Shown: one piece after another, positions 2,166 to 62,397 of the stretch
How positions within the stretch are numbered: position 1 is the stretch's first letter
Layout of the letters: each line of letters opens with the position of its first letter
Source of the DNA: Raillietiella orientalis
Taxonomy: Eukaryota
Assembly (NCBI GenBank): GCA_036172245.1
Contig: JAYWIR010000030.1
Coordinates: forward strand, 806,001 to 870,000
Direction of reading: 5' to 3'
DNA length: 64,000 nucleotides
Translations under genes and position numbers: made by a program
Notes under the pieces: model-generated
The model's input: the letters and a program-made list of their open reading frames with translations, nothing else
Told to the model about the DNA's origin: nothing
Databases searched by the model: none

Positions 2166-2760
2166 CACCCGGTCACGCCGGGGCGTTTATTGCTAAACAC
2201 TATGTTTTCGCGGTACGAGGCCCCGCTACGGCCAATAGTTCTTTGGACCTGCCAGGAAGCCGGCTCGCAGACCGGTTCGACTCTCCTCGGCAGCGGAGGG
2301 GGATAGGGGGTAAAACAAAAAGAAAAATAAATGAAACAAACAAAAAAAAGAAACTATTTGGGGGCCGGGAAGGGATCACAGTCCGCTGGAGGAAGAGACC
2401 ATCCTTTCCAGGATGCCCTCGAGGTCCCTCGTCATAGCTCCCAGATGGGACCAGCCGATCGCGATTCGCAGGTAGCGACCCGCGTGTACGATGGGGTCCC
2501 TATCGCTGCTTCCTCTGTTGGCTGCGTTCCACGCAGCCACAATCCCTCGGAGGCAGCAGAGCGCTGCCAGGGTTGAGGCTGGTGGCAGGGCGTCTCTCAC
2601 GAAGAGGAGTCGCACAACGTCTCTGGGGGTACTGCCGACCGGCATCCGGAGGGTCGTAGCAAAACATTCCCACAAGGGCCGGAGGGCAGCGCAGTCCACT
2701 AACAGGTGGGGGAGGGATTCCTTCTCCCCGCACACTGCACAGTTCTGTCCCACGTTCCCC
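2166..2760 (-). mobile_element. 3' fragment of L1/Tx1-type LINE (zinc-binding C-terminus and 3' UTR)
   Basis: NCAVCGEKESLPHLLVDCAAL is the CxxC...HxxxxC zf-RVT-type motif; followed by RYLRIAIGWSHL, a T-rich UTR and the terminal motif at 2166-2191. Confidence 0.85.
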
Positions 2761-2769
2761 AACGTCCAG

Positions 2770-3338
2770 TGGCGCTGGGGAGGGTGAACCCGAACTGCGC
2801 CAGGTGCGGGGAACGGGAATCCCTCCCGCACCTGCTAGTGGACTGCGTTGCTCTCTGGCCCCTTTCGGAACGTTTTTCAACGACCCTACGGATCCCATTT
2901 GGCAGCGCTTCACCCCCACCCCCAGGGAATTTCTACGTCTTCTCTTTGTGTGGGACGCCCTGCAGCCAGCCGCAGCCCTGGCAGCACTTTGTTGCGTCCA
3001 AGAGATTGTGGCTGCGTGGAGCGAAAGGGACGCGATCGAATTTGCACTCCGCTTCCTGCGGATTGCGACCAGATGGTCTTACCTGGGAAGCATACCGATG
3101 GACACTCCCCGAAGCGAATAGTGATCCCTTCCCGGCCCTCTAGAGTGTTCTTTTTATTTACCTTTTTTGCTTTATTTTTCTTTTTGTTTTTTCCTCTTCC
3201 CCCTCCGCTGCCGAGGAGAGTCGAGTCGGTCTGCGTACTGGCAACCCGGCAGGTCCAATGTTGTTTTGGCCGTAGTGGGGCCTTGTACCACGAATGTACA
3301 GGGGAGTTTATTAGTAAACGCCCCGGCGTGACCGGGTG
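2770..3338 (+). mobile_element. 3' fragment of the same LINE family, inverted relative to 2166-2760
   Basis: NCARCGERESLPHLLVDCVAL, then RFLRIATRWSYL after a frameshift. The UTR at 3120-3338 is a reverse-complement homologue of 2166-2380. Confidence 0.85.
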
Positions 3339-14500: not shown

Positions 14501-15184
14501 ACGAAAGAGGGAAGAAGAGGGAGAAATATCTTCAAGAGTCCCTCGTGCCGCTTCACCGGGAGGGAATACGCTCCCAGCTGGCTACGCGGCCTCTGGCCAG
14601 TCAGGGTGGCCAGGTTCTCTCTCTCTGCTTGCTCCTTTGCTGCCTGTCGGGCATGGCGGCGGCGGCGGCGGCGGCGGCGGCGAGATCAACATCTCGAAGA
14701 CGAGCGGCCACCACGATCGTCGCCGTCTCGGTCTCTTCTCACCCCCGCGCCAACCACACACATGGAAAACGGAACTGTCAAAACGCAAAAAAAAAACACA
14801 ACAAAAAAACAAACAAAAAAAAAAAAAAAAAAAAACGAAAAAGGAGCAGCGATCCATGCCATCGATCACGGGGCAAACGAGCACACCACTCCCAGAAGAT
14901 TGTTCCAGACAAGCTGAAGAAGGAATGCGGAGTCGCCTCTTTCCCTCGAGTCAGATGTTTGACGACAGGTTCGAAAAACAACTCACCAGGACTGGATTTG
15001 TCCACGCAGCCACTGGCGGGGCGGGTCCTCCAGCACGGGGTGCAAGCAAACAAGCAAAAGAAAAGCAATAGAAAAAAAGGAAAAAGGAAGAGGCTAGACG
15101 GACCGGGAAAGTCCCGTTTGCACAAGCGCCGCAGAGCCAGTCAGCGAATTCCCCCACGGCAAACTCTTCACGTAATCCGGTAAC

Positions 15185-33003: not shown

Positions 33004-35683
33004 AGAGAGAGAGAGGGAGGGAGGGAGGGAGGGAGTTTTTTTTTTTTTCCTCGCGTAATGAATATTGGTTCGTTTCTCACGATCCTTCAGTGAAAGGGTT
33101 GCAATCCATCCAAGTCGTATCTGCGACCGCAAAAAAAGGGTCTGTGCAGAAGGAAGCGATCTTGAAGGAGAAAAGAGGAAAGGAAGAAAGCCGATGCAAA
33201 TCCCCAAACGAATTTCCGCAGCCGTTCACGTGGGCTGCCCGCCCGCGCGGTTCGGAAGGCGCCCCCGTCGCCGCACAGCTCGGGGGCAGCGTTCTTGCCG
33301 TCGTTGCTCCCGGATGGGGAGTGACCCGCGGAAAACCTTCGGTGGCATCGGATCGCCGGGAGACGTTTGTGCCTGGACCCCCCTCGCCTGTACGCCGGGA
33401 AGCTGCGAGCGAACGTCGAGAGGGGGACGTCATCATCATCATCATCATCATCATCCATCCATCCATCCATCCGGTGTGCCGATGGTGATCGGATCCCAGT
33501 GCTTTCTAAGGAGGAAAAAAAATCCGTAAGAAGACCACTGTTGTCACAAAGAACCGTGCAAAGAACAAGAAAAAAAGAAGAAGAAGAAGAAAAAAAAGGA
33601 AGGCGAAAGCTCCTGATTTGAGAGCAGAAATGGCGAGCAGTGAAAAATGGCGTGCTTATAACTGTTCTTCCTATTTTATGCGGGTCGAAGGTGAAAAGTC
33701 GCCCAGTCTGTGTGTGTGGTTGTGAAGTTCGGTATGTCTTTCGCAAGCACTTTGGAGTAGGCACGGTGCCGTGTGGTCTTTCAACCGCGGGTGATTCATT
33801 GCCTGGATATCTTTGCTGGCAGGCATCGGTCAGCAGACCTCAGAGGCAGCGAGGTGGCGTCCGGACGGATCCGCAATGGAAAGGAGCCGTTCGATCGAGT
33901 GCAGGGAACCTCTTCCCCCCTTCGTGTCGTTCCTTTGTTCGTACAGGTGTTTGCCATTCGGAAGGACTGTGTTCAGCAGTTCAAGACCTCAGAATAGGGA
34001 GACCATCCCGCCGCAGCATTTTAATTAGAAATGCACACCATGCGAAGAAAGGGACTTTAATTATTTTGCTCAGGAGCGCGACGTTGTCGGGCGTGCGTCC
34101 GATCCATACAGAGGAATGCAAAGTGATTCGTAAGTCTTGAAAGGATTCATTGGGCAGAGCTCGGAAACGTGTCGGTGTGTGTGATTTCCCGCACGGTGCG
34201 CGAAAAATGTTCGCGCACCGCCCCCCCCCTCCGTTTCACGTAGCATGGATGCCGTGGCCATCTCCCACGTGAACCTTTCTCCCAGGGAATTTTTTTCTTC
34301 TTATTGTTTTGTAAAGCTTCGCTGCAGTCGTTATTTGTAGAGAGGTTCGACACTTCCCGAATGTGCATTTCAAGTTTTGCATGTGATTTTAGATTTCAAA
34401 GAACCAGAGAGAGTGAGGTACAACTCCTGCACTTTGTCCACGCAGCTGTTCTCTGATCCCGGATTCATGAGTAGATCTCACAACCATCAGTCAAGTTTCT
34501 TGTCCCCAATGGTGAGCAGTTGAAATAATTAGACTCCGGAGACAGGAGATGGCTTACTTAACAGTGGGACTGCCGTGTGCAAACGCATCCTCAAGTGCAT
34601 GCCCATGCTGATGATCAGGGAATCGAACTGTCACAAGTGAATCACTTTTCGTCATGGATTGGTGAACAGCGTCGTTTGCCGCAAAGCCCCTGTTGCGAGA
34701 GTCCTGGGAGTTCTGGTTCCAGTTCTTTAGGATGCCGAAACAGTACTACAAGTTTAGATAGTGGGAGAGGCTCGGCATCCACCAATCCAAATCGTCTGTC
34801 AGGACAGTCATACTCATCAGGATCAAGTCAGGGTTCAGACCGGTCTGAGGATCCAGCAAGCTGTATCTCTTTGGTATCTATTAGCGAGCTGTTGACTCGT
34901 AGGATGCCGGTGAGTGTGGCTCATCTAATAAACCTTCATGAGATATCTATATGGTAGGACCATGAAGTACTCAACCTTTGGCTTACTCACTTACACCTGG
35001 ATTGTTACTATCGCCACTTTTTGAAAGCGGGATATGATATGCCAACCGTGGCTCATATGACTCCTCAGGACTTGGCAGCCATTGGCATTTCTAATCCAAC
35101 ACACAGAAGGATGTTGATGGACGAAATCTCCCGTCTGCATCTCCCTGATGGACTCTCAGACCACATGCCATATGATTTGCGTGACTGGCTGTGTCAGTTG
35201 GGGCTAGAACAATACTATATGCCAATGGTTGGACATGGGTATGTTACCCTAGATGATGTTACCACACTCCAGTGGGAAGACATGGAAGATGTGGGCATTC
35301 TGCTTCTGGGCCACCAGAAAAAGCTTTTAGTGGCCATTCGACGACTGAAGGAAACATTAGCTGGACGCAGAACAATGATTCCACGACCCCAGACAGTGCC
35401 TCTGTTGAAAGTGGAACCAAAGAACCACTGTGATATGCGGACGTTTTTTCCTTCCAAATGTCGTAGTACACTCAAATGGGGAGGGTATGATGAATGTGAC
35501 CGGTCTTCACCCCCACCACCTGCCCCACCCCGTTCCCGTGATGTGACATTGCCCCACCGCCTTCCACGAACTGATGAGCTGCCCTCATTAAATGAAGGAT
35601 CCTCAGATGCTTTGACAGACATTGATAGCATGTTAGATTCCCTGACATCCGAACTAAATGAACTTATTCGTGCTGAGCACTAA
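30101..35683 (+). CDS. ckn: Caskin-family adaptor, paralogue A (short N-terminus, tandem SAM domains, C-terminal tail)
   Basis: Frame-consistent exons 30101-30667, 31183-31351, 34393-34511, 34565-34909, 34958-35683. Motifs: QSKSFE|IKKV..P..PE..RHS, DDQGIELSQ, SPGSSG, SLDSGR, SAM1 AGYDMPTVAHMTPQDLAAIGI, SAM2 WEDMEDVGILLLGHQKKL, tail DIDSMLDSLTSELNELI. The start codon and first exon are least certain. Confidence 0.85.
32966..33034. repeat. Compound (TG)n(GA)n(GGGA)n microsatellite
   Basis: Read directly. Similar tracts at 3711-3731 (CA), 15190-15216 (GA), 40920-40960 (TG), 45716-45769 (CT/GT), plus many homopolymer runs. Confidence 0.95.
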
Positions 35684-35691
35684 TAAACACA

Positions 35692-38600
35692 TCACACGTG
35701 GATTGTACTGGGTGGATCTCTCAGACGGATAGTCCCCGTGCGTTCACTGGCAAAGGGTAGTGATTCAACAGAGTCCCAGTCACTGTGGAAGGACTGCCTC
35801 CGAGAAATGTGGGGTACACTGCTTGAGAAAGAACTTTGTAACTGGTTCGTTTTGCTTATGGGGTGCTGGAATGTCTGCAACTCATTAACTGAAATTCTGT
35901 AAGGTTTGTGCACTTGTAAGACCAGATTGGTAGGGCTGGGGGATGCTGAGATCTTTGCTGTTGGATAAAACTTTTGTCCATTAAGTAGTGAACGGATGCG
36001 CTTCCCAGCTAACATCAGCCTTTTTTGATGACCAAGAATCTGCACTCCCATCTCCTCGAGATCTTCCCAAGCCAGCTGCGCGACATCATTCACTGTACAA
36101 CATCCATGTTCTTGGAGGCTGCTGTGGTAGCCCCTTAGTCCTAGTATTTCTAGCATTTCTTGCAAGCTTTCCTGGTGGAAGCAGTTGAAAAGACAGGGGA
36201 AAAAAAAGCAGTAGATACCGGTATATGAAGAAACATTCCATCAGGAAGCTGCAGTCGACTAATCTCTGCCATTAATTTTTTCCTGTGGACAGGATCGGAA
36301 ATACCAATAGCAGCCAGATCTTGTGGGGTCATAGCTCCCACTAGCAGCATATCGTAGCCAGCATTAAGAAAGTGGCCCTCGTACTGAGAGAAGCCTACAT
36401 CCATTAACCACATTGCCAGCACTTCGCTTGTCTACAAGTGCCATGAGACACGAACGTGGCGGCTACCTCTGCTTACCGGCATGCCACGTGCCAACAGCTC
36501 CACAATGGACACTTGACTAATGCATCCAGGAGCCGTCACACACGAGTCAGCACTGAATTCCGAAAGTACTGACATCCTGCATTGCCACTGTTAATTGAGT
36601 AGGAGCTAACCCTCTCACCTTTTACATAGTGGATCTGATAACGAGCAGGATGCTCTTCCACTGTCCATACTTCCTGTACTGATATTGGATGCAGTATCTT
36701 CACTGTAAGATTTCTGCTAGCAGTGAGCCTAAAGTTTGCATGCTTGGAAGCCTACCTGACTGGGACATTTCAACTCATTTCTCAGGGGTGAAAGTTTCAG
36801 CGAGGCAACAGATGGCGCAGTCTGCCATTCCAGATCAGATAAAGATGCAGCCAACTTTAGTTTGTTTCTCCCCTGGCCTTCCAAACAGGAATGCTGCCTT
36901 TTATTTATGTCCCTGAAGCATCCAAGAGTTTTTGTGCCATCAAAGTGGTGAGGCACTCTCGGGGGCGGTATGTTCTTGGATTGTGAGACATCTTTTGAGG
37001 GAAAATTGCAAGGAAAGCCACACAGTTACAGCTTACCCTCACGGTTATCACATGTGATTGTATCGGTAGCAAACACAAGTGATCCCGGAAAACGGCCGCT
37101 TCGGAATGCATTTCCCATTCCAGGAATAACTCCACTCCAGATGTCATCTGAGCCCTTTTCTAATACCTGGTAAAGAAATATGCCCCCCTCTCTCTCTCTT
37201 CCGAGCTTTGCTGAGTCCTTTTAATCACCCAAATGGTTTCTCCTTTTGCAAACAGCAAGGCCTCGGGATCTTCGGTATTGAAGTGATTTTGAATGGCAAC
37301 AGCCCTGGTGGTGGATATTGCCTCTGGAATCAGACCATGTAAGCAACAACGGTTTTCCCTGACATTTCCATCCTACGTGAACGCGCATCCACTCTGAAAC
37401 TCCCATGCTCGGATGGGAAAGCAAAAAAGTGCACGCGTCTTCGCCCACAGATGTGCAGGGTGATGGCGCGGAAACCGAGCCGTTCCTGACCGCAGTCAGC
37501 AGCAGCAGCAGTCCTAAGGGGGTTCACGAGCTGTGTGTTCTCCCATTTTTCATTTTTTTTTCTGTCTTCAAAGGAAAACAGGAAGAAGAAGAATAAGAAA
37601 GAAATCGTTGAGAAGCTTTTCGAAAGGTTTCGGACTCTGAGAGAGAGAGCTTTGTTGGGCTTGGTTCTTCCAAGGCAGCAGTCACATTGCTTTTGGGATG
37701 CCCCTCCCGCCTCCATTTGTGATTGGGGGTCTGCGGTTCTTCTTCTTCTTCTTCTTCTCTGCCGCCCTTTCCAGCCGTTTTTTTTTTGTTGTTGTTGTTT
37801 TTTTGTTGTTGTTTTTTTCGTTTTCTTGAACCCACTTCCGAGTACTCCCATCGGAAAAAACGCGAATCGTTGGGACACTTTGCGATGCCCCATGCCGTTT
37901 TGCAGTGCGAAGCTTTGCTTGTCATCGTGCACTCCTGAGAAAGCGTGGAACCCGAAATTGGATGCGTGATCCCGAGTTGAGCACGCAGGAAGTGCGACGG
38001 GCGGGCTCCCGGTCGTTCCCCATCTGGTCGGCCATGGGGCGTTCGCTCCTTTTGGAAAATGTTCCTGCAGATCTTCGACCTGTGAAACACTGGGTCAACG
38101 GTTCTTCTTCAAGCATGCTTCGGATTCCCTGCTCTCTTTCCTCTCTCTCTCTCTCTCTCTCTCTCCCCCCCCGCCTGCATGCCCGGCGCGTAGGATGCTC
38201 TGAAGGTACGATGGGGCACCGGATTGGCGTGTCGAGCGACTTGTGGGGGACGACGGGAACCGTTCCCGTGCCGCGGGCAGAAGCGCTCCTGAATCAGATC
38301 GCGACCCTCTTGTGCCGGATGCGAATCTGTGCGGCGTCCGAATCTGGAAGGACGGCTCCATGGCAGCAGGATGACCAGAAGGCGCACGGACCGCGCTTCC
38401 TGCATCCGGACGCGCGCCGTGCGGATGCAGGAAACGCAGGAGAGAGAATCCCTGGGATGGCGAAAGTCACCAGATGAAAACGTTCGGTTCGCTCACGCTT
38501 CCTCGCGGAAGTACGAATGCGAAGTCTCGCATTTTGTAGCGTTTTCCCACTACCCCGCGTGCGCCATAGAGAAGCCGGAAAATCGCAGACGCCTCCTCCT

Positions 38601-49399: not shown

Positions 49400-51450
49400 T
49401 GACGCGATTTCGATCACCACGGGAAGCTGCGTGCAGCAAGAGCGAGTGGCGCGGCCCTCTTCCGAACCGCAGCCGCTGCTTTTTTCCATCGGGGGGCCGA
49501 GATGCCCGAAAGCTTTCGGCTTTCGGGGTCCTGCCGACCCACTTGTCTCTCGCCTGCGCGGAGCAGGAGGTGAGGGTCGTCAGCGAGCGCGTGCGCGCGA
49601 AGGCCACGCGGTGGTGTGCCACCGCGGATTGAGGTCCTCGACGCGGAGAGACCCGCAGGGACTGCGAAGCGCAGACGCGTGTCAAGGCGGTCCTGTACTT
49701 CCGCTCGGTTTCCGGATGGCGGGCCGTGTCGTCCGAGCGCGCTCGTTCGCGTCCTCCTTTTCCCTCCCCCTCCAGGACCGGTCGGTCAACCTCCGAAGGA
49801 AGGGCGGGGGGGACCCCTCGCCAGATTCACCGGAACTTCGCCGCCGCTGCGGGGCCAACGTCAAAGGCTTGCGAAGATGCGTGTCGAGGCGGACTCGAGG
49901 TTTCCTCTTCCTTCGCGGTGAACAGGAGGGGAAAAGGAATGTTGGGAAAGAGGTCCCTTTTTCCTGGTGATGCCTATCCTCCCACTCCCACCCCTTCGCC
50001 CCTGCTGTCTGTCCTCCGGCGCCTTCTGGACAAAGAGAGGCGCCGGAAATCGCGAAGCAACCGGCAGTTCGGCGCGACGGAAGGACGTGTCTCTGAACCT
50101 TCGCGTCTCCTTGCCGTCGCGCGGGCGCTCTCGAGCTTGGGTCTTCGCCCTGCAGCTGGTGCCCTGAGCGCATCTTGGAGCGCGGCGCCCGCAAGGGCAG
50201 CTGGTCCCCGAGGACCGCACGTGGGCAGGGAAAACGCGTTTTCTGCAATGATAGCGGGGATAAAGACTGCGTTGGGTTCTGGTCGTCCCCCGGGAGTCGA
50301 CCGTCCCTGAGAACAGCCCGGGGGGGTCCAGCAGCGCGGGGAGGGAGAGTTCTCGGGTTGCTCTTGTTTCTTGAGGCGACCTGGGATGTCCCTTTTCCGG
50401 ACGACAGGGTGCAGTGGGACTCGGCATCTCGACAGTAAGCCCAAGCGAGGAACAACTGGAAACCTCATCCCATGCGGCGCCCTCCCTTATGCTCCCCACT
50501 CCCCAGCCTCCGCAGCGGCACGCTTCGCGCAGGGTAGGGTCGTCACTTGAGTGTTTCCGTTAATTCTGGAACTCTCTTCCAAGGGGATGGCTGTTGCGAT
50601 AGGGAGGGGGCTGTGAGCAGGCGTTGGAGAGGAATGGCATGGTCTCCCGCTCCTCTTCTTTCCATCCACATCCACGCGCTGCCTCCGTCTTCCCCCTTGG
50701 AAACCTTTCCGTCGCGTGGAGTCCACAGGGAGGCAAGATGGCGGCTTTCAGTCCGGGGCCGCGCCGCTGAGGAGGCCGGGCGCCGGGTAGCGGGAAAGAA
50801 GACACTGCATGAGTACATCAAGCCCTCGCGATGGGCCGGCAGTGGCTTTCGTCCGTGTCATTCCGGAAAAAAGGAAAACCGGCGGGGGACGTTGCCCCCC
50901 AGGAGGACAGCTCGTTCCCCCTCGGTTAAGGGAGTGGTCGCGGACAACCCACGCGAAGTTTCAAGGGATGTTTTCGAAACGAATGGGGGAAATCCGATAA
51001 GAAAAGGGGGAAACGAGGAGCCCCTTCCTGCCCTGGCAGATGCCGACGGGCTCCTACCGGTCCCCCGCGTCCGGGATTTCAGTAGGGACAAAGCCGTGGG
51101 GACGGATGCGCCGCCCGTCCACGTAAAATGGCGCGGAAGACTGTGGTTCGCCTCAGGGAAACTGCAAGAGACTGCAGGAGTTCGGCGAGTCTGAGGGGTG
51201 CACGAAGAGTGGGGACGTAGGGAGAACGGGGCGGGACTGCTTCCCACATAGCTCCGGAAAAAGTACCCTATTGGATGCGCAGCGGATTCCATCAGGTCCA
51301 GCGGGTAGGGGACGGGAATCGGAGCGGGAAGACCAGTACCGAAAGGAGGAGACAGGATGAGAAGGTGGGAGAAACGCACGGAAAGATTGGGTTTTTCTCC
51401 GCGTAGGAGTCGTCTCGGGGTCAGCCCGGACTCCACGATCTGAAGTCAGG
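49400..51450 (-). mobile_element. Decayed LINE ORF2
   Basis: GLTVE (PGPDGLTVE-like, ~50440) then QSLSPLSLQK...VLGDQL (RPISLLN...LANRL-like, 50275-50195). Confidence 0.45.
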
Positions 51451-52349
51451 TCCGGTGAAAAGTCGCGACACGTTCCCTCACCTCTCCCTCTCCCTAAATG
51501 GGACCGTGACCTGCAAGGGATCGGGATCTCTTTAAAAGTGTTCTCCGCACCGACGGGCCAGGGAGGGAGGATGAGGGTGAACTGGGGCAAATCCCCTCCT
51601 TTCCGCCGGGGTGCACATGCACCAACTGTGCCCAACGTATTGCGATGTGCCTTACTGCTGCCAAGTGCCACTTCATTTCCCAAGTCTGCTCTATGAGGAT
51701 TGCTTTGTAACCTGGTTTGTACTTGCAGCTCTCACATGTGGGCCATAGTCATCACTGAACGGTACCTGTCGCGCACATCAGGTATTTAAGGGGATTACAG
51801 CACCGCTGCAACAAAACGAAACGGATTATGACGACGCATGATGGATCTGCAGAATAATTATGGAGCCGTATAAGAATTTTTCATACGGTATTCACGATCA
51901 CAAATCTACTTGTGCCAGGGGCCTGGTGAATGGCACAACCATACATTAATGCTAAACCAAATCTCAGAACGACGGTAGATCTGGTTTATCACCAGGTGTT
52001 TGTTTAAATCTACTTTGAGTGTTGACTGCATACTGTGAGAGGAAATTGCTAGTTTTCATGTTTCACACAAACAAAATCCAAAATGCTATATGTCAGCTTC
52101 TTTTGTCATTCAAAAAGATGATCATTCTCAGCTGATCATTCTGATTGATCTTGCATGATTCTACAGGTGTGCAGGAGAACCACCTACTTCCACACTTCAC
52201 ATAGGAAACAGGGCTGGTTATTCCTGTTGACTGAACGATCACTGTCCAAAAGGTAACTAAATCACACACCTTTAACAGAATAGTGCCACAGAAATGGGAA
52301 CAGGCTTGCTTGCAGAAGGATGCCAGGATAACTTTTAAAACAATTTCAT

Positions 52350-52355
52350 TTTATT
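52350..52355 (-). promoter_or_regulatory. Polyadenylation signal of eIF3d
   Basis: AATAAA on the minus strand about 105 nt after the stop codon. Confidence 0.6.
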
Positions 52356-52459
52356 AAAAATTGAAAGTTGCAGCACAAGTTGTTTTTGTGTTGCAAGCAA
52401 GAACTTCTCTCAGATCTGCATCATTCCTTCCACAACTGATTTGTGACAGTTGTGACAGG

Positions 52460-54495
52460 TTAAGCATCGATTTCATTATCTGTAATTAGATCGTAATTAA
52501 AGCATCCGTGAGAAATTTTTACCATTGGCATCTTCTTCACTGGACTCCTCCTCTTCAGATTCAAATGTATTATCCGGAATGTCATATAAGCGAATTATGC
52601 TCTTGTTAGGATCCTTCACAATTAAGTACTTGCCATCTTTTTGTTTCATGCAGATATCAATTAGATAACGTAAGATACCCCATGCATTGTCCATGGACAA
52701 ATTAATTTGACTAGCAAACTCATGAGGTTTAAACAGCTGGGTTCCTAATATGACATGCCGACTAGTGTCTTGAATGTGATGACGAGACACATAACCAAAA
52801 CGAAGCTGATCCGAACCAGCCAGTAATGCCTGAACTGTCCATTTAGCTAGTTTACAGGAATTGTTCTTAAGTTCATTGGCCAAAACTGCACCCCTCTGGG
52901 TATCTAGTTTCTGACGCCAATCTATGCCTCCAGAAAAACGGGGATCCCATTCATTCAATGCTTTGATGTTAACAAACAATGTCTCTCCATTAGGTCCTGA
53001 TACAGCTGCATCATGCTCACAGCGGCACACAAGTTCAATACCACCACCCAGTTCCCATTTACGATAACGATATGCAACAGAGGCTACCTCTCCTTCTTCT
53101 TCCTCTTCAACAAAAGGATTTTTCTCCTCAAATGAAAACGTTTCTTCTCCCTGGATCAGCACAACTTTATGCACCTTAAATTTTTTTGAACTCACCATTT
53201 TAAGCACTTGCTGTGAAAAATTATGATTGATGAACAATGCTTCCAAGGCCAAACTACGTGGGGAATTTATGCTAGCACCTTCATCTTGTGGAGGCTCATT
53301 TGAGGTCTCACTGACCGTCAGCAAATCTGTTTCAAAACTTCTGTTATGCATGGCAAGCATCAACATTATCCATACCAAACTCAGAATTATCTCTTTTGTC
53401 AAAAAAGAGTTTCCCACCCACTTTATGCACGACTACATCCCAGGAGTATACAGAACGAGTGCAACACATAAGTGAAGCAAGGATAGCATCTGTACCGAAT
53501 ACGTTGCCCTCACTCTTAGACAACTACAGCCAAATTTATGTTGGAAGTTCTACATAGCCACTTACCTGTCTTATAATTGGATCATCTGTTGTGGCAACTT
53601 TATGAAAGATTCGATCTATACGCTGCAGAGGTTTCTCAGCTTTTGTATTAACCCTGTCATACGCCCGATCATAGTACTCCAAGGTTCCACAACACTTTCT
53701 AAATGCAACAGTAACTGTATTTGCAAAACAAAGAACTTACAAATCCTTGCACTCCTCAATTCCAGGGAGAGACAATTTGCTCAACCTAGGAAAGTCCATT
53801 TCTTCAATAACAATCCATTCTGGTTTCACAGTTACAGATGATTCTCGGATCTTTATGGGAATTTGATTTTTTTGATCATAGCGTTGTCTATTTCCATATT
53901 GCTTTTGCCACTTGCGAACTTGTCGCATTCGGTCTCTGGTTCAAAACATCAGAAACAGAAAAGCAAAATATTTGTACCTGTCCCTAATCTTGGCAGTTTT
54001 GCTCAATGACTGCATAGGTTGTTGTTGACGAAGTTGTTTCAACTTATTTAATTTCTGGCTACGTAAATTTCTTCCTCTTTGATATAAGGGCTTTTGAATT
54101 CTTGTGGTATCAACCAGTTGAAAGGAACTCTCATCCTCATCATGATAATAAGCATACTGGGAATGACCTCCAACAGCAAAGCTTGAAACATATTTATCTG
54201 ATGAAATTAAATTCCGTTAGAGGGCATAAAGACCACGAACCAACTTACTTTGATATTTCCTATCCTGATAAGTTGATCCTGTCCAATCTGAAACCTTTTA
54301 AACTTTGTTAGAAAGCATTGTGTCCATGGGGAGTAATACGTATCTATGTGTTTTTATTATGACACTTACCTTCCCTAATCTATCTCCTTTAGAAAAAGGT
54401 TGATATGGCATATCTTTGAATTGTTCTGGGATATCCTTAGGTCCCCATCCAGTAGGATTATTTTGGATGACTGGAAATACAAAGCGAGCCGCCAT
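52460..54495 (-). CDS. EIF3D: Eukaryotic translation initiation factor 3 subunit D
   Basis: Nine frame-consistent exons: 54495-54370, 54294-54249, 54197-53978, 53935-53741, 53698-53566, 53523-53376, 53326-53196, 53150-52523, 52479-52460. Hallmarks NPTGWGP...[58 protein letters not shown]. The last intron is inferred; if unspliced, the stop is at 52497. Confidence 0.97.
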
Positions 54496-55589
54496 TTTTC
54501 CAGGCCAATATGTTTGAAGGAACTAGCACTCCTGGCAATGTTACTTGCACCAATAGCACTGCTACCAAGTTTCACGAGTCTGAATAAAATATTAAAGACG
54601 CAGAATCAACGGTTCTTATCAATGCAAGCGATCATTGTCCACAATTCTTCCTTAAGAATGGCAATAAAATTTGAATATAGGCAAAAATTCTTTAATACCG
54701 TACTTTTGCGTGATTAGTAAAAATAGAAATCGGGAATTTTGATGGAAAAAATTTCGTTTACCATCTCATGCATGGTTTCTAAAACGAAACGCTTGAATCA
54801 TGTAGTTATTTTTTATGTGTAGATAATAAAAATGATATTTGTGTTTTAAAATAACAAACATATGATATATGTTTGTTCTCAGTTTTGATCCATCCTAAGT
54901 GTAGCAAGCTCGTTTCATTTCGTGCAACTAATACGAAGCCAACGAGGTTGCTATGGTGATGCTTGCACTTTTCATTTCAATGTACCCATGAATCTTAGGA
55001 TAAAAATAAATAATCATGAGGAGCGGAGATTGGAATTTGAAAACTTGAATCGGATAATGGGGACAGTATTGAGATAACGATAAAAATCATGGAAAGAAAC
55101 TCTTAGCTATACATGTAATTGATGACGGATCGACAATACAATTTTGTGAATTTAGAACGATCATATTGGAAAGTCTCATTTTTATGAAACTCATCTCATT
55201 AAATCATTCATTAAGTATTTCATAACATCACTGAATCCTGTTCATAAAAACTGACTGCTTCATCATTGGTCTATCTATTAGGTGGAGTGACATCAATAAT
55301 GTATTTAAATATTTATTTAGAGAGCAATTTTCGGTTAACCTAACTGAGATTGCGTGTTGTTTACAATCCTTCCTGTCTTTGAGAGTATATTATATATTTG
55401 AGAGTTATACTCTTTAGGGATGTTTGAATGTCGAATCAATAGAGTGAACAGATGTGATCAGCAGAATATACAACAAAGACTCAGTTCAGCAAACGATTTG
55501 TCCTCTGAAAACGAAAAAAAAATTTAAAATGTCGTTAGACAGAGTTTATCACGTTGCTATTATCCGTCAATTGCTTGTTCAATTTCTTT

Positions 55590-55760
55590 TACATTTCTAA
55601 ATATTTTTTCAATAATCGCAATTATGTTTTAGTTCTTTCATCAAAGTTTCGAGTTTCAAAGTCCATCATTACATGTATCGTTCCACCAGAGACTCGAAAA
55701 CTTTTACACATTTTAGAAAAAATTTTCAGAGAAATAGAAGCTGCAAGAAAATCAGGTTCC
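55590..55760 (+). mobile_element. Possible PIF/Harbinger transposase fragment
   Basis: LSSKFRVSKSIITCIVPPET resembles the Harbinger helix-turn-helix text (FRVSKSTIS.I.PET); no catalytic domain seen. Confidence 0.3.
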
Positions 55761-56939
55761 AACGATTTAGTAGTTAAGCTCATAAAGTAAAGCTGGCAAG
55801 GATAGGTCCTTCAGCTAACTGATGATACGAACCGTGAATGTTGAGTTCAGTTCTTGGACTCTTGTAGCTTCCTCGATGCATGAGCTTTCCTATTTTTTTC
55901 AAATTAATAGGAGCTTCCCCTTTCGAGAAGTCCAAAGAAAGTCAGTATCTTAGGATAGTCTCATGGTTCTCAAGAAGTCAAAAGATAAAAAAAGTAGTTT
56001 CTCTATTGCCTAAATAACAAAGGATTGCATTATGTATTTATGCAGTGGTTCAGGTAAGGAGCGGCGTCTTGCGAAAATGCGCCTCACATTTTGCAAAAAA
56101 TCCTCACTGCTCATCTTTACGGCTCCGAACCTGTTATCCTAACATTTTTTTTGGATCTAGGAATTCATTGATATTTACAAAGATTTACAAAGATTTTCAC
56201 AGAATATTTATACATTTCTGCTTGTTATTAATTCTGAAACATGAAGGGTCCCTGAAGTTTTGCAAATAGTGCAGTAGGATACCAGAATCCAGTGCTAAGT
56301 TTCATGTTCATGTTGTTGATTATGTTAGTCACTTCACCGGTCACAGTTCCATTTGATATTCGCCGCCGGGAAAATCGATCTCGATTCAGAAATGACGGAG
56401 AAATTTTCAAGGGGAAGTTTATTTTGATTTCAAAAAATACAAATTTTCTATCTGTTTACGTGATAACTTCGATGGAATCATCCATTAAATAGATTTTGTA
56501 CATTCTGTATACAAAAGTATGAGAGTTTTCCCAATGTGTCTAAAATAGTTTGTGAGAACAATTATGTGTGCATTTTACAGAATCCATTAATATATGTCAG
56601 TCGACTATCAGAGGTCGATGTTTGATCCTGTATCAGCGATTTCAGAGCTACTGTAATCTTGGAAAGAAAATTCTTAAGAATATTCTTAGGTTAATAGTTA
56701 TTTCCCTTATCGTGTAGCTTCAAAAACAATTTCGGAGAAAGCCTGGAAGGCCATATGTGAACTTAAGTGGTGCTCCTCCACACCTAGCAATCGTGAAGGA
56801 GAATCGTGAAAAATCAATCAGTATGATTAACGTTCTGAAAGAATAAAGTAAAATTGTCTTAGAGATGTAGTGCACTTAGTGAAGGACCCCTTTACTTTTG
56901 GAGAGTCCAGTTCTTTTAAATTACGTTATTACCTCCAAA

Positions 56940-56998
56940 TTGCTGAGTTTACTTAGTCAAAATTTATCTGCGATGCATCTTATCTTTCTTCTTTCGAA
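56940..56998. repeat. Left 59-bp inverted repeat flanking the 18S fragment
   Basis: Matches the reverse complement of 57595-57653 at 55 of 59 positions. Confidence 0.95.
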
Positions 56999-57002
56999 GA
57001 AA

Positions 57003-57580
57003 CATATGCTTGTCTCAAAGATTAAGCCATGCTTGTCTAAGTCCATGCCGAGACAAGTCTAAATCGCGAATGGCTCATTAAATCAGCTGTGGTTCCTTAG
57101 ATCGTACAATCCTACTTGGATAACTGCGGCAATTCTAGAGCTAATACATGCTTCCAATGCTTCCAATCGTTTTTGCGGATGGAGGGCTTTTATTAGAACA
57201 GGACCAGCAAGTTCTCTTCGCAGACCCAGAAACTCTTGATGACTCTGAATAACTTTGGCCTGATCGCAACGGCCTCGTCCCGGCGACTTATCTTTCAAGT
57301 ATCTGCCTTATCAACTGTCGAAGGTAGGTTATCCGACTACCGTGGTTGTAACGGGTAACGGGGAATCAGGGTTCGATTCCGGAGAGGGAGCCTGGGAAAC
57401 GGCTGGCACATCCAAGGAAGGCAGCAGGCGCGCGAATTACCCACTCCCGGCACGGGGAGGGAGTGACGAAAAATAACGATACGGAACTCACATGAGGCCC
57501 CGTAATCGGAGTGAGTACACTGTAAATCCTTTAACGAGGATCTAACGGAGGGCAAGTCAGGTGCCAGCAGCCGCGGTAAT
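57003..57580 (+). pseudogene. 18S rRNA 5' fragment (dispersed, truncated)
   Basis: Runs from CATATGCTTGTCTCAAAGATTAAGCCATGC through GGGTTCGATTCCGGAGAGGGAGCC to GTGCCAGCAGCCGCGGTAAT, then similarity stops abruptly. No rest of 18S, 5.8S or 28S nearby. Confidence 0.95.
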
Positions 57581-57673
57581 GTATCGAGGAAACATTCGAA
57601 AGAAGAAAGATAAGGTGCATCGCAGACAAATTTTGAAAAAGTAAACTCAGCAACTCAGTTTCCTCGACACATT
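57578..57673. mobile_element. 96-bp MITE-like unit containing the right 59-bp repeat (57595-57653)
   Basis: Ends AATGTATCGAGGAAAC (57578-57593) and GTTTCCTCGACACATT (57658-57673) are inverted, 15 of 16 matching. Confidence 0.55.
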
Positions 57674-59488
57674 GTCTCTTTGAACCTTCCTTTTGTAGCC
57701 TGGCTCTGAAGTTGTCTGCAGTCTCCATCTTGGTGTGTCTCGGCTTGCTACATTCCGCGGATTTCATTGAGACTTCGCCAATGTGATAATGGGATCTAAT
57801 GGGACACTTTGCCTGCTCTGCTCACACGTTCGACGTTCCCTTTCAAATCCAGTTCCTACTGTTACTTTTGAGGCAAAGTGTGGTTACAAAACCCTCAAGC
57901 GTGACTTTGAAAGTCAGAGAGATATTGAAATAAGTGAAAGGTTGCCTAGGTGAACGGAGTGAACTTGAAAATTTTTGGTGCCAGGATGTTCTCCTTTTTA
58001 TTTTTTTTTCTTCTAGCGTGTGGAGCTCCAGATGATTCTGAAAGAAAAAAGCATTTGTTTTTCTGCTTGGATTTCACTTATTTCAATTACAGTGGGAAAA
58101 GAAATGAATTCACGAAGGCGAAAGCGAAACTTTCGAATTTGACCGCAAGATGCCGGGGAGAGATGCTGTTCATGCGCCTAGTGGGCGGTGCATCCCGATA
58201 TTAACTGTTTGTTTCCCGCTCTTTCCTTGGCTATGCAGAGAGGGATTTTTTCGTTTCATTTCATTTTATTTTATTTACCACCTCCACAGGTTTTATTTTC
58301 CTTCAGCGAGCCTCGCTTTGAAACTGGCAGCTCCGCGCGCACGCACGCCGAACATCGCCACCTCGCGCGACGTGCGCACAATGCGGAATTGCGGGCGCTC
58401 GTCCTTCCGCGCTCATTCCTGAGCGAGCGAAGCGAAGGAGTTCGCAGGGGGGAAAGGGGGTGAGGACGACATCCTGCCCAAGTGGCATCTACGGACCCGC
58501 GGGTGCGGTGTGTTGCGGAGGAAATGCGAGCGGCTCCGTCCCCTTCTTCAGTCTGAGCGACTCGCTGGGAACGGGCGGCCGTGTCGGTGAGGCGTGCCGT
58601 GGCCCGCCGGGACGCGGGGATGGGGCGATGAGCCAGGCACGCTGCTTCCCCTCGATCTCCGCCGTCTCTGACTTTCGACTTTTCCTCGTCCGATGGACTT
58701 GGGAACCGCGGCCGTCCCCTAGTTTCCCCCCCGCCTCGGTATGCCGGGGGAAAGGCGGGGAGTGCGACGATCTCCATGCGCCCGCCTCTCGGACTTCAGG
58801 GTCCACGGCTACCATGGGGCCGACCTCGCGGTCGGATCGGAAGGAGCTGCGGCGCCTGGGGCGAGGCGCGTCCCGCCTTCCAGCCGGTCTCTGCAGCAGC
58901 ACCCCTGCGCGGCCCCGGAGGTTCGCGGCGCTCGAGGTCTCCCGAGGACACCGGCAACGGGCGCGGGGTGGCGCTCTGGGTGCGCCGCCAGAGGACGGGG
59001 AGAGAGAGGGACCCGACCTCTTCGCCTGAGGGCGGCAGAGGAGCAAGCTTCCTCCAGTCTACCGAAACGAGTGCCGAGAGAAGGGAAGGGGGTAGGGCGG
59101 CCGTGGCGAGCTCCGCTGGGCAGGAGAGGGCAGTCCCCAGCTTCGGATGGGCGGCGATCGTGGACCGGCGTCTTTTCGGGGGAGGGCGAAGAAGGAAGGG
59201 GGCGTCCCCTGGGCACTGAATTTCGCCCCTCCCTGTGGGCACCACGGTCCCTCGTGCGCTCCATCGCTTTCCCCGGCAGCGGAGAGCAGAGTAGGGGAGC
59301 CATTCCCGCCCTCGGGCTTGTTCTCTGGGGGAAGGGGTGGGGGCAGAAGGGGAAGGCGGACAGGCTGAGCGCCCGGGGCGGATGACGCCCACCCGCCGCG
59401 GGAGCCACAGGTGCTGCGGATGAAGAGGTCCACCTTTGTTTTTTTATTGGCGCCGGCGCCGTCCCCTGTGCCCGGACGCTGCCCTTCC

Positions 59489-62397
59489 TCAGCCGTTCTC
59501 GTTGTTGACGCTGCCCTTGACCCCGGTCTTCCCCGTCCAAGGGTAGAACTCCGGGCACTTCCTGCATGTCCGCATGAACCGCGACCCCGTCTGGTGGCGG
59601 ACGTTGCAGACCTTGGGGGACTTGCAGCGGGGCGGGCGATCCTGAGGGGGGGCAAGGAAAGGGGCGGGGTGAGACGGCCTCCCGAGCCGGCTCACCGAGC
59701 GGTCACAGCCCCAGGGTTTGAAGCTCTTCACTGTGGTCAGGTCCTGCGGGTCCCGCATCCACTGGATGAGCTGCCAGTTGGTGACCAGCCACACGTCGTC
59801 CATGCCGACCAGGGTGTCCAGGAAGGCCAGAAAACCCTCCTTGTGATGGGGCTGGGTGAACCACGCGGCGTGATAGAAGAGACCGAACGGCGCCCTGCAA
59901 GGGAGGGAGGGAAGAGGGCAGGTAAGTCGGGGGGGGGGGGGGCAGGGTCAGTCGCCGCTCCCCCCCCGCCTTGGGAGGGAGCGCTCTCACCTGTTAGTGG
60001 TGTAGTGGCGCTCGAAGTTCTTGATGAGCATCTTGTACACCCCTTCCGCGGTGGGGGGGCTGCTGCACCCGTCGGCCATGGAACACCTCCCTCCGTTCAG
60101 GTCCTGCCACATCACGAGGGGGATCTCCCAGATTCCTGCGGGGGTGGAGGAGAGAGAATCAAGAAGCGGAAGAGGAAGGAAGAAAAGGGAAGATCCGAAA
60201 AGAAAAAAAAGGGGGGGGACGCCCCCTCCCCCTCCTGCTCACCCGGGTAGGAGTTGGTGGGGCAGGGCGGGATCATGCAGTCGTGGAACACCTTGTAATC
60301 CAGGGTGTACGGCCAGGAGGGCGGCCGGTTCTCGTACACAGGCATCGACGAGTCGTAGGTGAAGTTGGCGTCGTACAGCATCTTGAACATCTTGTTGCCC
60401 CCCACCTGAGGGAAGAAGGGGGAGGAGGAGAAGCGGTGATCATTCGGGGCGTGAGGGCACGTTACCGCCAGGAAGGGCGCCCTCATCCCGCGCACGTCTT
60501 CCCTCTTCACCCCTCCGAAGGCCGCCAGTATGTCTCTCTGCCCGTCGACCTCCTTGCGCCACTTCTTCGACGGGAACTGCTCCCCGAAGCTGTGCCTAGA
60601 GAAAGGATGCCGCGGTGAGGAGAGAGGAAGAGCGCGGAAGTTCGAGCGCCGCTCACGAGATGGTGTGCGAGGCGATCTCGTGACCGTCTGCGTAGAGGTT
60701 CTGGACCTGCCCGTAGTCGGTCCACTCGTGGCTGACGTAGAAGGTCGCCTGGATGGGGCAACCGTTGGGGTTCAGACGACCTTCCTCGAAGATGTCCTGG
60801 TACAGCTGCCTGTTCAGCTCGTTGACCGCGTCGTCGAAGGTCAGCAGCACCGCCTGAGGGATGTTCTCTGGCTGGAGCCCTCCTGGAAGCAAGCAGGGAG
60901 GGGATGACCTCACGCAGAAGGTTGCGTCCGGAAGCGAAGAGAAACAAAGAGGAGCAGGGAGAGGAAGCGAAGTCCTGCTCCTCCCCTTCCCTCCCACTGA
61001 GCTCACCGGGGACCTCCTTGCCGCCGCAGTAGCAGTCCGGCAGCAGGCAGACGCTCCTGTTGCACTTCACGGCCGCGACCTCGACCTTGGGCGTCGGCCG
61101 CACCGACGCCGGCCTGGAGGGGACCGAGTCGAAGATGGAAGTCGGGTAGGATGTCACCGGGAACAGTTTGGCCGGCTTCAGCGTCGACCTGCTGCAAAGG
61201 GGGGAGGGAAAAAGGAACAGAGGCATGGGCACAGGGGTGAGGGATGGGGCGGGCGAGGATGGCGCCGCCCCGTGCTTACCTGGGAGACGGGGATCCTGTC
61301 GTGGAAGGCGGCTCGATCCTGGAAGGAGACAGGAAGAAGGTGGACTTGCGCGGAGTGATCCCGTTCCCTCTCGGTTGCCTAGGAGACCCGACCCTTGGGT
61401 CTTGGCTCCCTGCAGGAAGGGGAAGGAGCGCCGGTCCCGCTTACCCTGATCCAAGTACGGGCCTAATCCTGGCGGGAAAGGAGGTGAGGCTCGCACGTCC
61501 TGCATCGTCCCTGCGGCTGAGGGAGACGGTGTCCTGGGGAAGAGCCGTGGAGGTGCGTGAAGGCGGGGGACCTCCTGCCTCGACTATCCTTTCTTGGCGC
61601 GGAGGAGGAACATCCTCTGCGCCGCCGTTGGCCGCTTCTGGGGGCCGAGGGGTGTCCCACCTCGCTTCCTGCGCCTCAGCCGGATCGCCGCCGCCCTGCA
61701 GGTGCCCTGCCCTCGGGGGTAGACGGGGGAGGAAGGGCAGCGCAGAGCGTCGCGTACCGCCGCCAGAGCCACAGCACGGCGCGTCGTCGACATAGGGGGG
61801 CTCGTCGTCAACGGCGCTGCCGCCACCGCCGTGGTACTGCAAGAAGTCGTCGTCCTCCACTGCCACGAAGAACGGCGACGTCTCTCTGTGATCTTCGTCC
61901 GTGAAGTTGCCCTCTGGGATGCTCTGCGGCTGAACTCGCACCGCAGCGTCCAAGGAGTTGAGGTACTCGTCTCCTCCGCCGGGGTTGGGACCGAAGCGCA
62001 CATAGGAGCGCTCAGTGTGCGCCGCCGGTCGTCGGCTCGGCTCCTCGAAAGGATGCGATCTGGAAGGGCCGACGCTGCAACCGAAGGCGTCGGCGCCAGC
62101 AGCGGAAGAAGGGAAGGGGAGACGGGGAAGGGGGGAAGGAGGTGCGCCGTGTGCCCCTACTTACTCGGAAGGGAGAGCTGACGATTCCTCTTTCGAGAAG
62201 TGGTCCTGCAGCAGAGTCTGCCGGGTTGTAGATGGCGTCAAGTGCGCCTGCGCGGATCCCCTCACGAGACTGCCTACCTGTCTTCTGGGGTATCCGCCAT
62301 CCATGAAATCAGCTTCTTTGGCGCTGGCTTGGGCACCAGAGTCCTTCTCCCTGTTCCTCTCTCCGTAGACAAAGACATCATGGTTATTTTCCAATGA
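59489..62397 (-). CDS. Cda5: Arthropod-type chitin deacetylase-like protein (CE4; long low-complexity linker as in CDA5/group IV), 5' part not seen
   Basis: Frame-consistent exons 62397-62165, 62059-61445, 61318-61280, 61188-61007, 60882-60657, 60595-60466, 60405-60243, 60135-59991, 59894-59696, 59641-59489. Motifs LTFDDAVN, HEIASHTISH, MRAPFLA, YDSSMP, PFGLFYH. AATAAA at 59448-59443. Linker exons are less certain. Confidence 0.92.

What the first reader, a model, noticed from the sequence alone, without database searches (positions are those of the whole stretch)
56940..57653. 18S rRNA 5' domain boxed by 59-bp inverted repeats: candidate rRNA-carrying DNA element
The 578-bp 18S fragment starts 4 nt after the left repeat and ends 14 nt before the right one; the repeats match at 55 of 59 positions. 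Ordinary rDNA orphons lack such a frame. The cargo is roughly the SSU 5' domain. Both junctions show 3-nt microhomology (GAAACAT/CATATG and GGTAAT/AATGTATC), and GAAACAT at the left junction is the inverse of the ATGTTTC a full inverted copy would have, consistent with template switching at a hairpin. Inference: Pack-type capture of rRNA by a TIR element, possibly mobile as a unit. No clear target-site duplication is visible.
Basis: partly seen in the sequence, partly recalled or inferred. Interest (0 to 1): 0.75.

Follow-up and report, generated by a model that had tools for sequence, protein, structure and literature searches.

The report
rRNA scrap patched into broken palindrome
A dead 578-base piece of the small-subunit ribosomal RNA gene sits exactly in the middle of a 59-base inverted repeat, and its junctions read like the scar of a DNA hairpin that broke and was patched with stray ribosomal sequence: a known kind of repair scar, not a demonstrable mobile element.

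Summary
Two 59-nt arms (56940-56998, 57595-57653) are complementary at 55 of 59 positions and occur nowhere else in the window. They enclose a decayed eukaryotic 18S fragment (57003-57580, about 18S nt 25-583).

The junctions fit a repair scar better than a Pack-type transposon.
- The six bases inside each arm are the same word, GAAACA, in direct orientation. The 18S piece therefore sits in the 6-nt spacer of an older 124-nt palindrome.
- The 16 nt left of the right arm (57578-57593) are the inverse of the 16 nt lying 4 nt beyond that arm (57658-57673), at 15 of 16 positions. None of 5000 shuffles reached this. A 3' tail folding back and copying 11 nt would give exactly this.
- Both 18S junctions share 3 nt with their neighbour (CAT, AAT).
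- There is no target-site duplication, the outer flanks are unrelated, and no transposase remnant lies nearby.

Best reading (0.6): centre-break of a palindrome, repaired by end joining with rRNA/rDNA filler and a foldback-templated patch. Copy number could not be tested: no genome is held, no sequencing run was listed, and collection scans found nothing. This is a clear natural example of a known process, of modest interest.

The parts
56940..56998 (.). Left arm of the 59-nt inverted repeat
   Evidence: the repeat finder I1, 55/59 complementary to 57595-57653; blastn E 1.7e-19, unique in the window
56999..57005 (+). Left copy of the palindrome's spacer GAAACA(T); its last 3 nt CAT overlap the start of the 18S piece (microhomology)
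   Evidence: Sequence: the same word stands at 57589-57595 in direct orientation. The chance of the same 6-mer at these two fixed places is about 1/4096 (calculation).
57003..57580 (+). Decayed 18S rRNA fragment, about 18S nt 25-583 (most of the 5' domain up to the GCGGUAAU loop)
   Evidence: Rfam RF01960, 406.8 bits, E 1.6e-119; alignment with about 16 broken pairs and changes at conserved sites; 9-nt tandem duplication at 57148-57168
57578..57593 (+). Foldback-templated patch AATGTATCGAGGAAAC. It comprises AAT shared with the 18S end, 8 nt of filler, and the first 5 nt of the right spacer copy.
   Evidence: Inverse of 57658-57673 at 15/16 (repeat finder I24). 0 of 5000 shuffles of the two 40-nt flanks reached 16 nt with <=1 mismatch; the maximum was 14.
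57589..57595 (+). Right copy of the spacer GAAACA(T)
   Evidence: Sequence
57595..57653 (.). Right arm of the 59-nt inverted repeat
57658..57673 (+). Template of the patch, GTTTCCTCGACACATT, 4 nt outside the right arm

Best explanation
This is a DNA-repair scar, not a gene or a working element. INFERRED: the locus once held a 124-nt palindrome, made of two 59-nt arms around a 6-nt spacer GAAACA. INFERRED: it broke at its tip, the known weak point of hairpin- or cruciform-forming palindromes ('centre-break'), and each end kept a copy of the spacer. SHOWN as sequence, mechanism inferred: on the right-hand end the minus-strand 3' tail (...TTCGAA-TGTTTC) folded back. Its last five bases paired with GAAAC 64 nt upstream on the same strand (or on a sister copy), and a polymerase copied 11 nt (CTCGACACATT). 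INFERRED: the last three of these (ATT, AAT on the plus strand) annealed to one end of a stray 578-nt piece of 18S rDNA or rRNA-derived cDNA. The other end of that piece joined the left break end through the 3 nt CAT. The outcome is arm, GAAACA, 18S nt 25-583, 8-nt patch, GAAACA, arm. The long spacer would have stabilised the palindrome. Since then the arms (4/59 different) and the rRNA piece have decayed neutrally. It has no function; it lies about 2.4 kb upstream of an eIF3d gene in non-coding DNA.
For: (1) The insertion is exactly at the symmetry centre, and the same 6-mer GAAACA abuts the inner end of both arms in direct orientation. An inverted copy would read TGTTTC on one side. (2) Arms plus one spacer, taken from the window by a script, fold as a near-perfect DNA hairpin: MFE -57.4 kcal/mol against -8.0+-2.6 for 200 shuffles. 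(3) 57578-57593 is the inverse of 57658-57673 at 15/16. It was found independently by the repeat finder (I24), and 0 of 5000 shuffles reached it. The match spans 5 nt of spacer, 8 nt of otherwise unexplained filler and the last 3 nt of the 18S piece. That is what priming on GAAAC, copying 11 nt and annealing by the last 3 predicts. (4) The Rfam consensus continues ...GGUAAU-UCCAGC, whereas the window reads GTATCG, so the 18S ends at AAT. (5) No target-site duplication, no extension of the repeat into the outer flanks and no Pfam family in 31 neighbouring ORFs. (6) Each step is described experimentally. Snap-back synthesis on inverted primer repeats, followed by annealing through newly made microhomology, is described in Drosophila (PMC5728401, passages). 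Foldback inversions of 5-34 bp primed across a 41-nt loop, together with capture of distant DNA at yeast breaks, are described in PMC11724301; rDNA is a common donor in Dna2-deficient cells (passages). Centre-break palindrome revision is cited in PMC3300023 (one sentence and the reference entry). (7) Arm divergence (4/59) and 18S decay are of the same rough order, so one old event fits.
Against: No empty palindrome has been seen; its prior existence is inferred from the duplicated spacer alone. Genome-wide copy number of the arms and of the cassette is unknown (no genome held; scans found nothing). The parent 18S of this organism is not available. The 3' microhomology therefore rests on the Rfam consensus, and the 5' one (CAT) rests on my recollection of the universal 18S 5' end plus position arithmetic. 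The foldback is not thermodynamically favoured. In the MFE fold of the 102-nt tail the 3' terminal 23 nt are unpaired, and a 5-nt primer across a 64-nt loop is weak, so the template may have been used in trans. One of the 16 copied positions differs. How both ends kept the spacer is not resolved: staggered nicks or a short copy from a sister are both possible. The origin of the palindrome itself is unexplained.
Confidence: 0.6

Rival explanations
1. Pack-type or MITE/foldback-type DNA transposon. The 59-nt arms are terminal inverted repeats recognised by a transposase encoded elsewhere. The element picked up the 18S piece (by gap repair or template switching) and can move, or once moved, as a unit.
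For: Long, well-matched inverted termini around unrelated host sequence are the formal anatomy of Pack elements. Capture by such elements is itself thought to go through repair synthesis (recalled), so the foldback patch does not contradict it. Copy number could not be tested.
Against: There is no target-site duplication of 2-10 bp at the outer ends; the longest shared word in the two 12-nt flanks is CCTC, and it is not at the ends. No second copy of the arms was found in 64 kb, in the metagenome contigs or in the viral contigs. These are exact-pattern scans of collections that are unlikely to hold this animal. No transposase-like ORF lies nearby (0 of 31 ORFs). The arms carry no sub-repeats (one search lists no tandem array there).
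Confidence: 0.12
2. One-step complex rearrangement (serial template switching, MMBIR/FoSTeS type). Only the right arm and its flank were ancestral. A single faulty repair or replication event made the inverted left arm, the 18S insertion and the 16-nt inverted patch together.
For: Two inverted copies of neighbouring sequence (the 59-nt arm and the 16-nt patch) plus 3-nt microhomologies at the joints. Arm divergence and 18S decay are of similar order.
Against: No strand of a one-armed ancestor carries 'arm + GAAACA' in the orientation seen at the left junction. Its minus strand reads arm + TGTTTC. At least one extra switch exactly at the arm boundary, with no microhomology, would therefore be needed (reasoning from the sequence). 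The left outer junction (CCAAA|TTGCTG) also shows no microhomology with the template.
Confidence: 0.15
3. Retro-insertion. A fragment of 18S rRNA was reverse-transcribed by a LINE enzyme at a nick in the palindrome's loop, and GAAACAT is a 7-bp target-site duplication.
For: A 7-nt direct repeat immediately flanks the insert. rRNA is the most abundant RNA (general knowledge).
Against: There is no A-rich or LINE-derived tail at either end. The piece is internal to 18S and lacks the natural 3' end. The 8 nt between the 18S and the repeat are copied from the local flank, which target-primed reverse transcription does not predict.
Confidence: 0.05
4. Assembly or amplification artefact: an inverted chimera of reads joined to rRNA sequence.
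For: Inverted chimeras with short microhomologies are typical of whole-genome amplification (recalled). No reads could be laid, because no run was listed.
Against: The arms differ at 4 of 59 positions and the 18S is decayed, with a 9-nt duplication. A fresh chimera would copy its sources exactly. Local base accuracy is good: the neighbouring eIF3d exons read open and conserved.
Confidence: 0.03

Closest known systems
Centre-break revision of DNA palindromes (Cunningham et al. 2003, Mol Cell Biol 23:8740). I saw only its reference entry and one citing sentence in PMC3300023. The paper itself is not held.
   Same: A break at the tip of a hairpin- or cruciform-forming palindrome is healed by end joining. 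This leaves an asymmetric centre that stabilises the repeat. Here the insertion lies exactly in the 6-nt spacer of a 124-nt palindrome.
   Different: Those events were seen in transgenes in cultured mammalian cells and mice (recalled), mostly as small central deletions or insertions. This is an old germline event in an arthropod-like genome with a 578-nt foreign filler.
Synthesis-dependent microhomology-mediated end joining, snap-back mode (Drosophila; PMC5728401, passages read), and polymerase-theta templated insertions (PMC4912351, PMC5068794: search listing only)
   Same: A 3' end pairs with an inverted 'primer repeat' on its own strand. A few bases are copied, and the new bases supply the microhomology for the final joint. 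The insert becomes part of a longer inverted repeat. Here that is a 5-nt primer, 11 nt copied and a 3-nt joint.
   Different: The loop here is 64 nt. The reported primer repeats lie mostly within about 30 bp of the break. The enzyme cannot be named from sequence.
Foldback inversions and distant templated insertions at yeast double-strand breaks (PMC11724301, abstract and passages read)
   Same: Short inverted duplications (mostly 5-34 bp) are primed across a 41-nt loop and then joined to the other end with 0-5 bp of microhomology. Fragments from elsewhere in the genome are captured, with rDNA a frequent donor in Dna2-deficient cells.
   Different: That was a yeast amplicon assay, and inserts there are mostly under 100 bp in the mutants described. 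Here there is a single 578-nt insert fixed in an animal genome.
NUMT-type filler DNA at chromosomal breaks (PMC2567098, listing and start of abstract only). A parallel note from this scan, e1-684967, reports an rDNA spacer piece inside a Naegleria actin pseudogene.
   Same: An abundant non-local nucleic acid is used to patch a break and then decays as a pseudogene.
   Different: The donor is nuclear rRNA/rDNA, not organelle DNA, and the recipient site is the centre of a palindrome.
Pack-MULEs and other cargo-carrying TIR elements (recalled: Jiang et al. 2004, Nature; not read here)
   Same: Host gene fragment between long inverted termini.
   Different: No target-site duplication, no related copies found, no link to an autonomous element. 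The spacer word is duplicated inside the arms.

Membership tests
Pack-type / non-autonomous TIR DNA transposon | Terminal inverted repeats at both ends | tested here: met
   59-nt arms, 55/59
Pack-type / non-autonomous TIR DNA transposon | Target-site duplication directly outside the termini | tested here: not met
   Flanks are ...CCTCCAAA | CTCAGTTT... No shared word at the ends and no TA, TWA or TTAA.
Pack-type / non-autonomous TIR DNA transposon | Several copies, or termini shared with an autonomous element | not testable with these tools
   No genome held. There is a single copy in the 64-kb window. Exact-pattern scans gave 0 hits in metagenome contigs and viral contigs.
Pack-type / non-autonomous TIR DNA transposon | Transposase gene or remnant in or near the element | tested here: not met
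   0 of 31 non-eIF3d ORFs (>=45 aa) between 51906 and 58463 matched a Pfam family at E<=0.01
Break-repair scar (centre-break plus end joining with filler) | Insertion at the symmetry centre of a palindrome able to form a hairpin | tested here: met
   Same spacer word inside both arms. Arms plus spacer fold at -57.4 kcal/mol against -8.0+-2.6 for shuffles.
Break-repair scar (centre-break plus end joining with filler) | Locally templated (foldback) nucleotides at a junction | tested here: met
   16 nt, 15/16, inverse of the flank 64 nt away; 0 of 5000 shuffles reached this
Break-repair scar (centre-break plus end joining with filler) | Short microhomology at the joints | tested here: inconclusive
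   AAT is supported by the Rfam consensus. CAT rests on recall of the 18S 5' end. The organism's own 18S was not available.
Break-repair scar (centre-break plus end joining with filler) | Empty (pre-insertion) site in a relative or allele | not testable with these tools
   No genome or reads
rRNA pseudogene / rDNA orphon | Significant match to SSU rRNA, truncated, with disrupted conserved structure | tested here: met
   RF01960, 406.8 bits, model 31-583 of 1831. About 16 non-standard pairs and a 9-nt duplication.
LINE-mediated retrocopy | A-rich or LINE-derived 3' tail next to a target-site duplication | tested here: not met
   The junction sequences carry no such tail, and the 8-nt filler is copied from the flank.

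The most novel reading that the evidence does not exclude
The 124-nt palindrome is a small foldback/MITE-type mobile element. Repair of a break in its loop loaded it with the 5' domain of 18S rRNA, creating a transposable cassette that spreads an rRNA fragment. If transcribed, it would form a 59-bp stem with an rRNA loop. This would be a 'Pack-MITE' with non-coding RNA cargo whose moment of capture is still legible at its junctions.
Probability: 0.07. Interest if true: 0.6.

Novelty: new member of a known kind. Interest (0 to 1): 0.25.

Why it matters
The individual steps are known from engineered breaks in yeast, flies and cultured cells: breakage of a palindrome at its tip, foldback priming, microhomology joining and capture of abundant nucleic acid as filler. 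Natural, fixed examples where all of them can be read from one locus are uncommon. This one can serve as a worked example. It is also a warning for annotation: 'host fragment between long inverted repeats' is not enough to call a cargo-carrying transposon, and an Rfam SSU hit of 400 bits can be a dead scrap. It opens no long-standing question.

Tried and rejected
- Whole-genome search for the arms and the cassette: no genome is held for this window.
- Public sequencing runs for 50001-60000: none was listed and no RNA holder was listed.
- Exact-pattern scans with the inner and outer halves of the arm, degenerate at the positions where the arms differ: 0 loci in metagenome contigs and 0 in viral contigs.
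- Earlier findings of the scan: nothing for this genome or this sequence. A word search gave one parallel case in another genome.
- Host-to-parasite transfer or a chimeric contig as the reason for the sharp AT-rich island (51.75-58.3 kb) that holds the cassette: dropped. The GC-rich remainder also encodes animal-type proteins, namely a Caskin-like tandem SAM domain and an insect-type chitin deacetylase exon.
- GC3 periodicity screen for coding ORFs: only one ORF passed, so it was not informative.
- Literature search for transposons carrying rRNA fragments: the 12 listed papers were not relevant by title or abstract. I make no claim that none exists.
- Cunningham et al. 2003 could not be read.
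- Helitron, hAT, Tc1/mariner, PIF and piggyBac end signatures were checked by eye against the termini and flanks: none fits.

Full report
OBSERVATION. The repeat finder on 56000-58600 reports one inverted pair, 56940-56998 and 57595-57653. The arms are 59 nt, 93% complementary (55/59), with 596 nt between them. A blastn of 56001-58600 against the whole window recovers the pair at E 1.7e-19 and gives no other hit to either arm at E<=1. The four differences are one adjacent double change and two transitions (print-out).

The Rfam gathering scan of all 64 kb gives one match: SSU_rRNA_eukarya, 57009-57588 on the plus strand, 406.8 bits, E 1.6e-119, model positions 31-597 of 1831. In the alignment homology runs cleanly to ...GCCGCGGUAAU (57580). 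After that the consensus reads UCCAGCUCC while the window reads GTATCGAG, which is forced on with gaps. Counting back from model position 31 = 57009, and using my recollection of the universal 18S 5' end, homology begins at 57003 (18S nt 25, CAUAUG). The piece is thus 578 nt, 4 nt from the left arm and 14 nt from the right arm, as stated.

The piece is a pseudogene. flags about 16 non-standard pairs inside it, apart from 7 that belong to the spurious tail. These include both closing pairs of the conserved GAGAAAC hairpin. It also shows changes in near-invariant single-stranded stretches. One search shows a 9-nt tandem duplication at 57148-57168.

CONTEXT. No whole genome is held for this window.

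The cassette lies in a sharply bounded AT-rich island of about 51.75-58.3 kb. GC there is 0.28-0.47 in most 200-nt bins, against 0.58-0.72 on either side. The island carries an intron-bearing eIF3d gene on the minus strand:
- Six open segments between 52497 and 54522 cover Pfam PF05091 positions 1-532.
- The last exon matches solved eIF3d chains at E 3e-124 (6w2t_9) and 1.8e-120 (5k4b_A).
- The nearest Atlas clusters are mostly arthropod.

I first suspected foreign DNA or a chimeric contig. The GC-richer remainder also encodes animal proteins, however:
- A Caskin-type tandem SAM domain at 34958-35680 (3sei_A, E 4.8e-41; Pfam SAM_1).
- A chitin-deacetylase exon at 60656-61066 on the minus strand (5zns_A, E 1.3e-24).

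Otherwise the ORFs scanned outside the eIF3d gene (326 references in those three calls, a few of them the same frame given twice) gave nothing above threshold. So this is an arthropod-like animal genome with strong compositional mosaicism, and the 18S type (a GACGAAAAAUAAC-class sequence, by recall) is in keeping with it.

Between eIF3d and the right edge of the island, none of 29 ORFs of 45 aa or more matched any Pfam family. The same holds for 2 ORFs to the left of the gene, so 0 of 31 in all and no transposase or reverse transcriptase. Rfam at E<=1 on 56800-57800 finds nothing but the SSU.

THE JUNCTIONS. Three details decide the reading.

(a) The spacer word. Immediately inside the left arm stands GAAACA(T) (56999-57005). 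Immediately inside the right arm stands GAAACA(T) again (57589-57595, the T being the first base of the arm). The orientation is direct. If the arms had been made as one inverted copy, one side would read TGTTTC. The chance of the same 6-mer at these two fixed places is about 1 in 4096. The simplest source is an older palindrome, arm-GAAACA-arm, split in its spacer with each end keeping the spacer. Built by slicing the window, that 124-nt sequence folds as an almost perfect DNA hairpin: -57.4 kcal/mol against -8.0+-2.6 for 200 shuffles.

(b) The inverted patch. The 14 nt between the 18S and the right arm are not random. AATGTATCGAGGAAAC (57578-57593) is the inverse of GTTTCCTCGACACATT (57658-57673), which lies 4 nt beyond the outer end of the right arm. 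The match is 15 of 16. The repeat finder lists it on its own (I24, 94%, 64 nt apart). In 5000 shuffles of the two 40-nt flanks, the longest inverted match with at most one mismatch never exceeded 14.

The match covers the first five bases of the right spacer copy (GAAAC), the eight otherwise unexplained bases, and the last three bases of the 18S piece (AAT). This is the product expected from the following sequence of events. The minus-strand 3' tail of the right-hand break end (...TTCGAA-TGTTTC-3') pairs by GTTTC with GAAAC 64 nt upstream. It is extended by 11 nt. It then anneals through its last three bases to the incoming fragment.

(c) The left joint. This joint shares CAT between spacer+T and the 18S start.

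Outside the arms nothing matches. There is no direct repeat at the ends: the longest shared word in the two 12-nt flanks is CCTC, and it is not terminal. The 150-nt outer flanks give an inverted Smith-Waterman score of 14, against 15.6+-2.2 for 500 shuffles.

MECHANISM. I therefore read the locus as a centre-break of a palindrome, healed by end joining with filler.

Each step has experimental precedent:
- The snap-back form of synthesis-dependent MMEJ in Drosophila uses inverted 'primer repeats', short synthesis, and annealing of the new bases to the other side. The insert becomes part of a longer inverted repeat (PMC5728401, passages).
- In yeast, foldback inversions of mostly 5-34 bp are primed across a 41-nt loop and joined with 0-5 bp of microhomology. 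Breaks there also capture distant DNA, with rDNA a frequent donor when Dna2 is lacking (PMC11724301, abstract and passages).
- Centre-break palindrome revision is cited in PMC3300023 (one sentence and the reference entry). The original paper is not held.

Several things are inferred rather than shown:
- the earlier existence of the palindrome;
- the nature of the break;
- whether the template was used in cis or in trans;
- whether the filler was rDNA or cDNA of rRNA;
- the enzyme.

Points against this reading:
- In the MFE fold of the 102-nt tail the 3' end stays unpaired, so the foldback is not favoured by energy alone.
- One copied base differs.
- The organism's own 18S was not available to verify the microhomologies.
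- The origin of the palindrome itself is unknown.

RIVALS.
- A Pack-type or MITE-type element (0.12) keeps the formal anatomy. It fails the target-site-duplication test and has no support from copies or a transposase. Copy number could not be tested beyond the window and three exact-pattern scans that found nothing.
- A one-step serial template-switch event (0.15) explains the two inverted copies. It needs an extra, homology-free switch exactly at the arm boundary, because no strand of a one-armed ancestor reads arm+GAAACA.
- A LINE-mediated retrocopy with a 7-bp duplication (0.05) lacks any tail and does not predict the flank-derived patch.
- An artefact (0.03) is unlikely, given diverged arms, a decayed rRNA piece and clean neighbouring exons.

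COMPARISON AND VERDICT. The thing works like known break-repair scars (NUMT-type filler, templated foldback insertions, palindrome centre revision) and meets the tested features of that class. It does not meet a defining feature of TIR transposons. It is a clear natural member of a known kind of event, of modest interest. It is mainly useful as a worked example and as a caution for transposon and rRNA annotation. The decisive tests are a whole-genome search for the arms and junctions, and a look at the orthologous site in relatives.

Noticed in passing
window 51750-58300: Sharply bounded AT-rich island (GC about 0.28-0.47) inside GC 0.58-0.72 sequence. It holds a complete six-exon eIF3d gene (minus strand, 52497-54522) and about 3.7 kb of non-coding DNA with the cassette. 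Why a housekeeping gene sits in such an island is unexplained.
   Followed up: partly
window 2207-3294: Large degenerate GC-rich palindrome centred near 2768: arms 2632-2764/2773-2905 (133 nt, 77%, 8 nt apart), with outer continuations 2525-2630/2918-3023 and 2207-2374/3127-3294. Palindromes with short spacers evidently persist in this genome.
   Followed up: no
window 57924-57939 and 58072-58087: Perfect 16-nt inverted repeat with 132 nt between the arms, 270 nt to the right of the cassette. It may be another small foldback-templated patch or hairpin.
   Followed up: no
window 34958-36431: SAM-domain ORFs on both strands: a Caskin-like tandem SAM on the plus strand (34958-35680) and single SAM ORFs on the minus strand (35695-36240, 36153-36431). 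This may be an inverted duplication of SAM exons or two converging genes.
   Followed up: no
window 60656-61066 (-): Exon of an insect-type chitin deacetylase (Pfam Polysacc_deac_1; 5zns_A at E 1.3e-24) in 64% GC sequence.
   Followed up: partly
window 56979-56988, 57287-57296, 57605-57614: The 10-mer CTTATCTTTC occurs in the left arm and inside the 18S piece, and its inverse occurs in the right arm. About 0.05 such matches are expected by chance, so it is borderline. It plays no part in the junctions.
   Followed up: partly
window 52497-53432 (-), residues 81-95 of the ORF: The last eIF3d exon carries a 15-residue in-frame stretch that is absent from the two solved homologues whose alignments were shown. 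It may be a very short unspliced intron or a lineage-specific insertion.
   Followed up: no
window 14780-14850, 16625-16700, 17509-17565: Long A-rich and T-rich runs of 40-70 nt that pair as low-complexity 'inverted repeats'.
   Followed up: no
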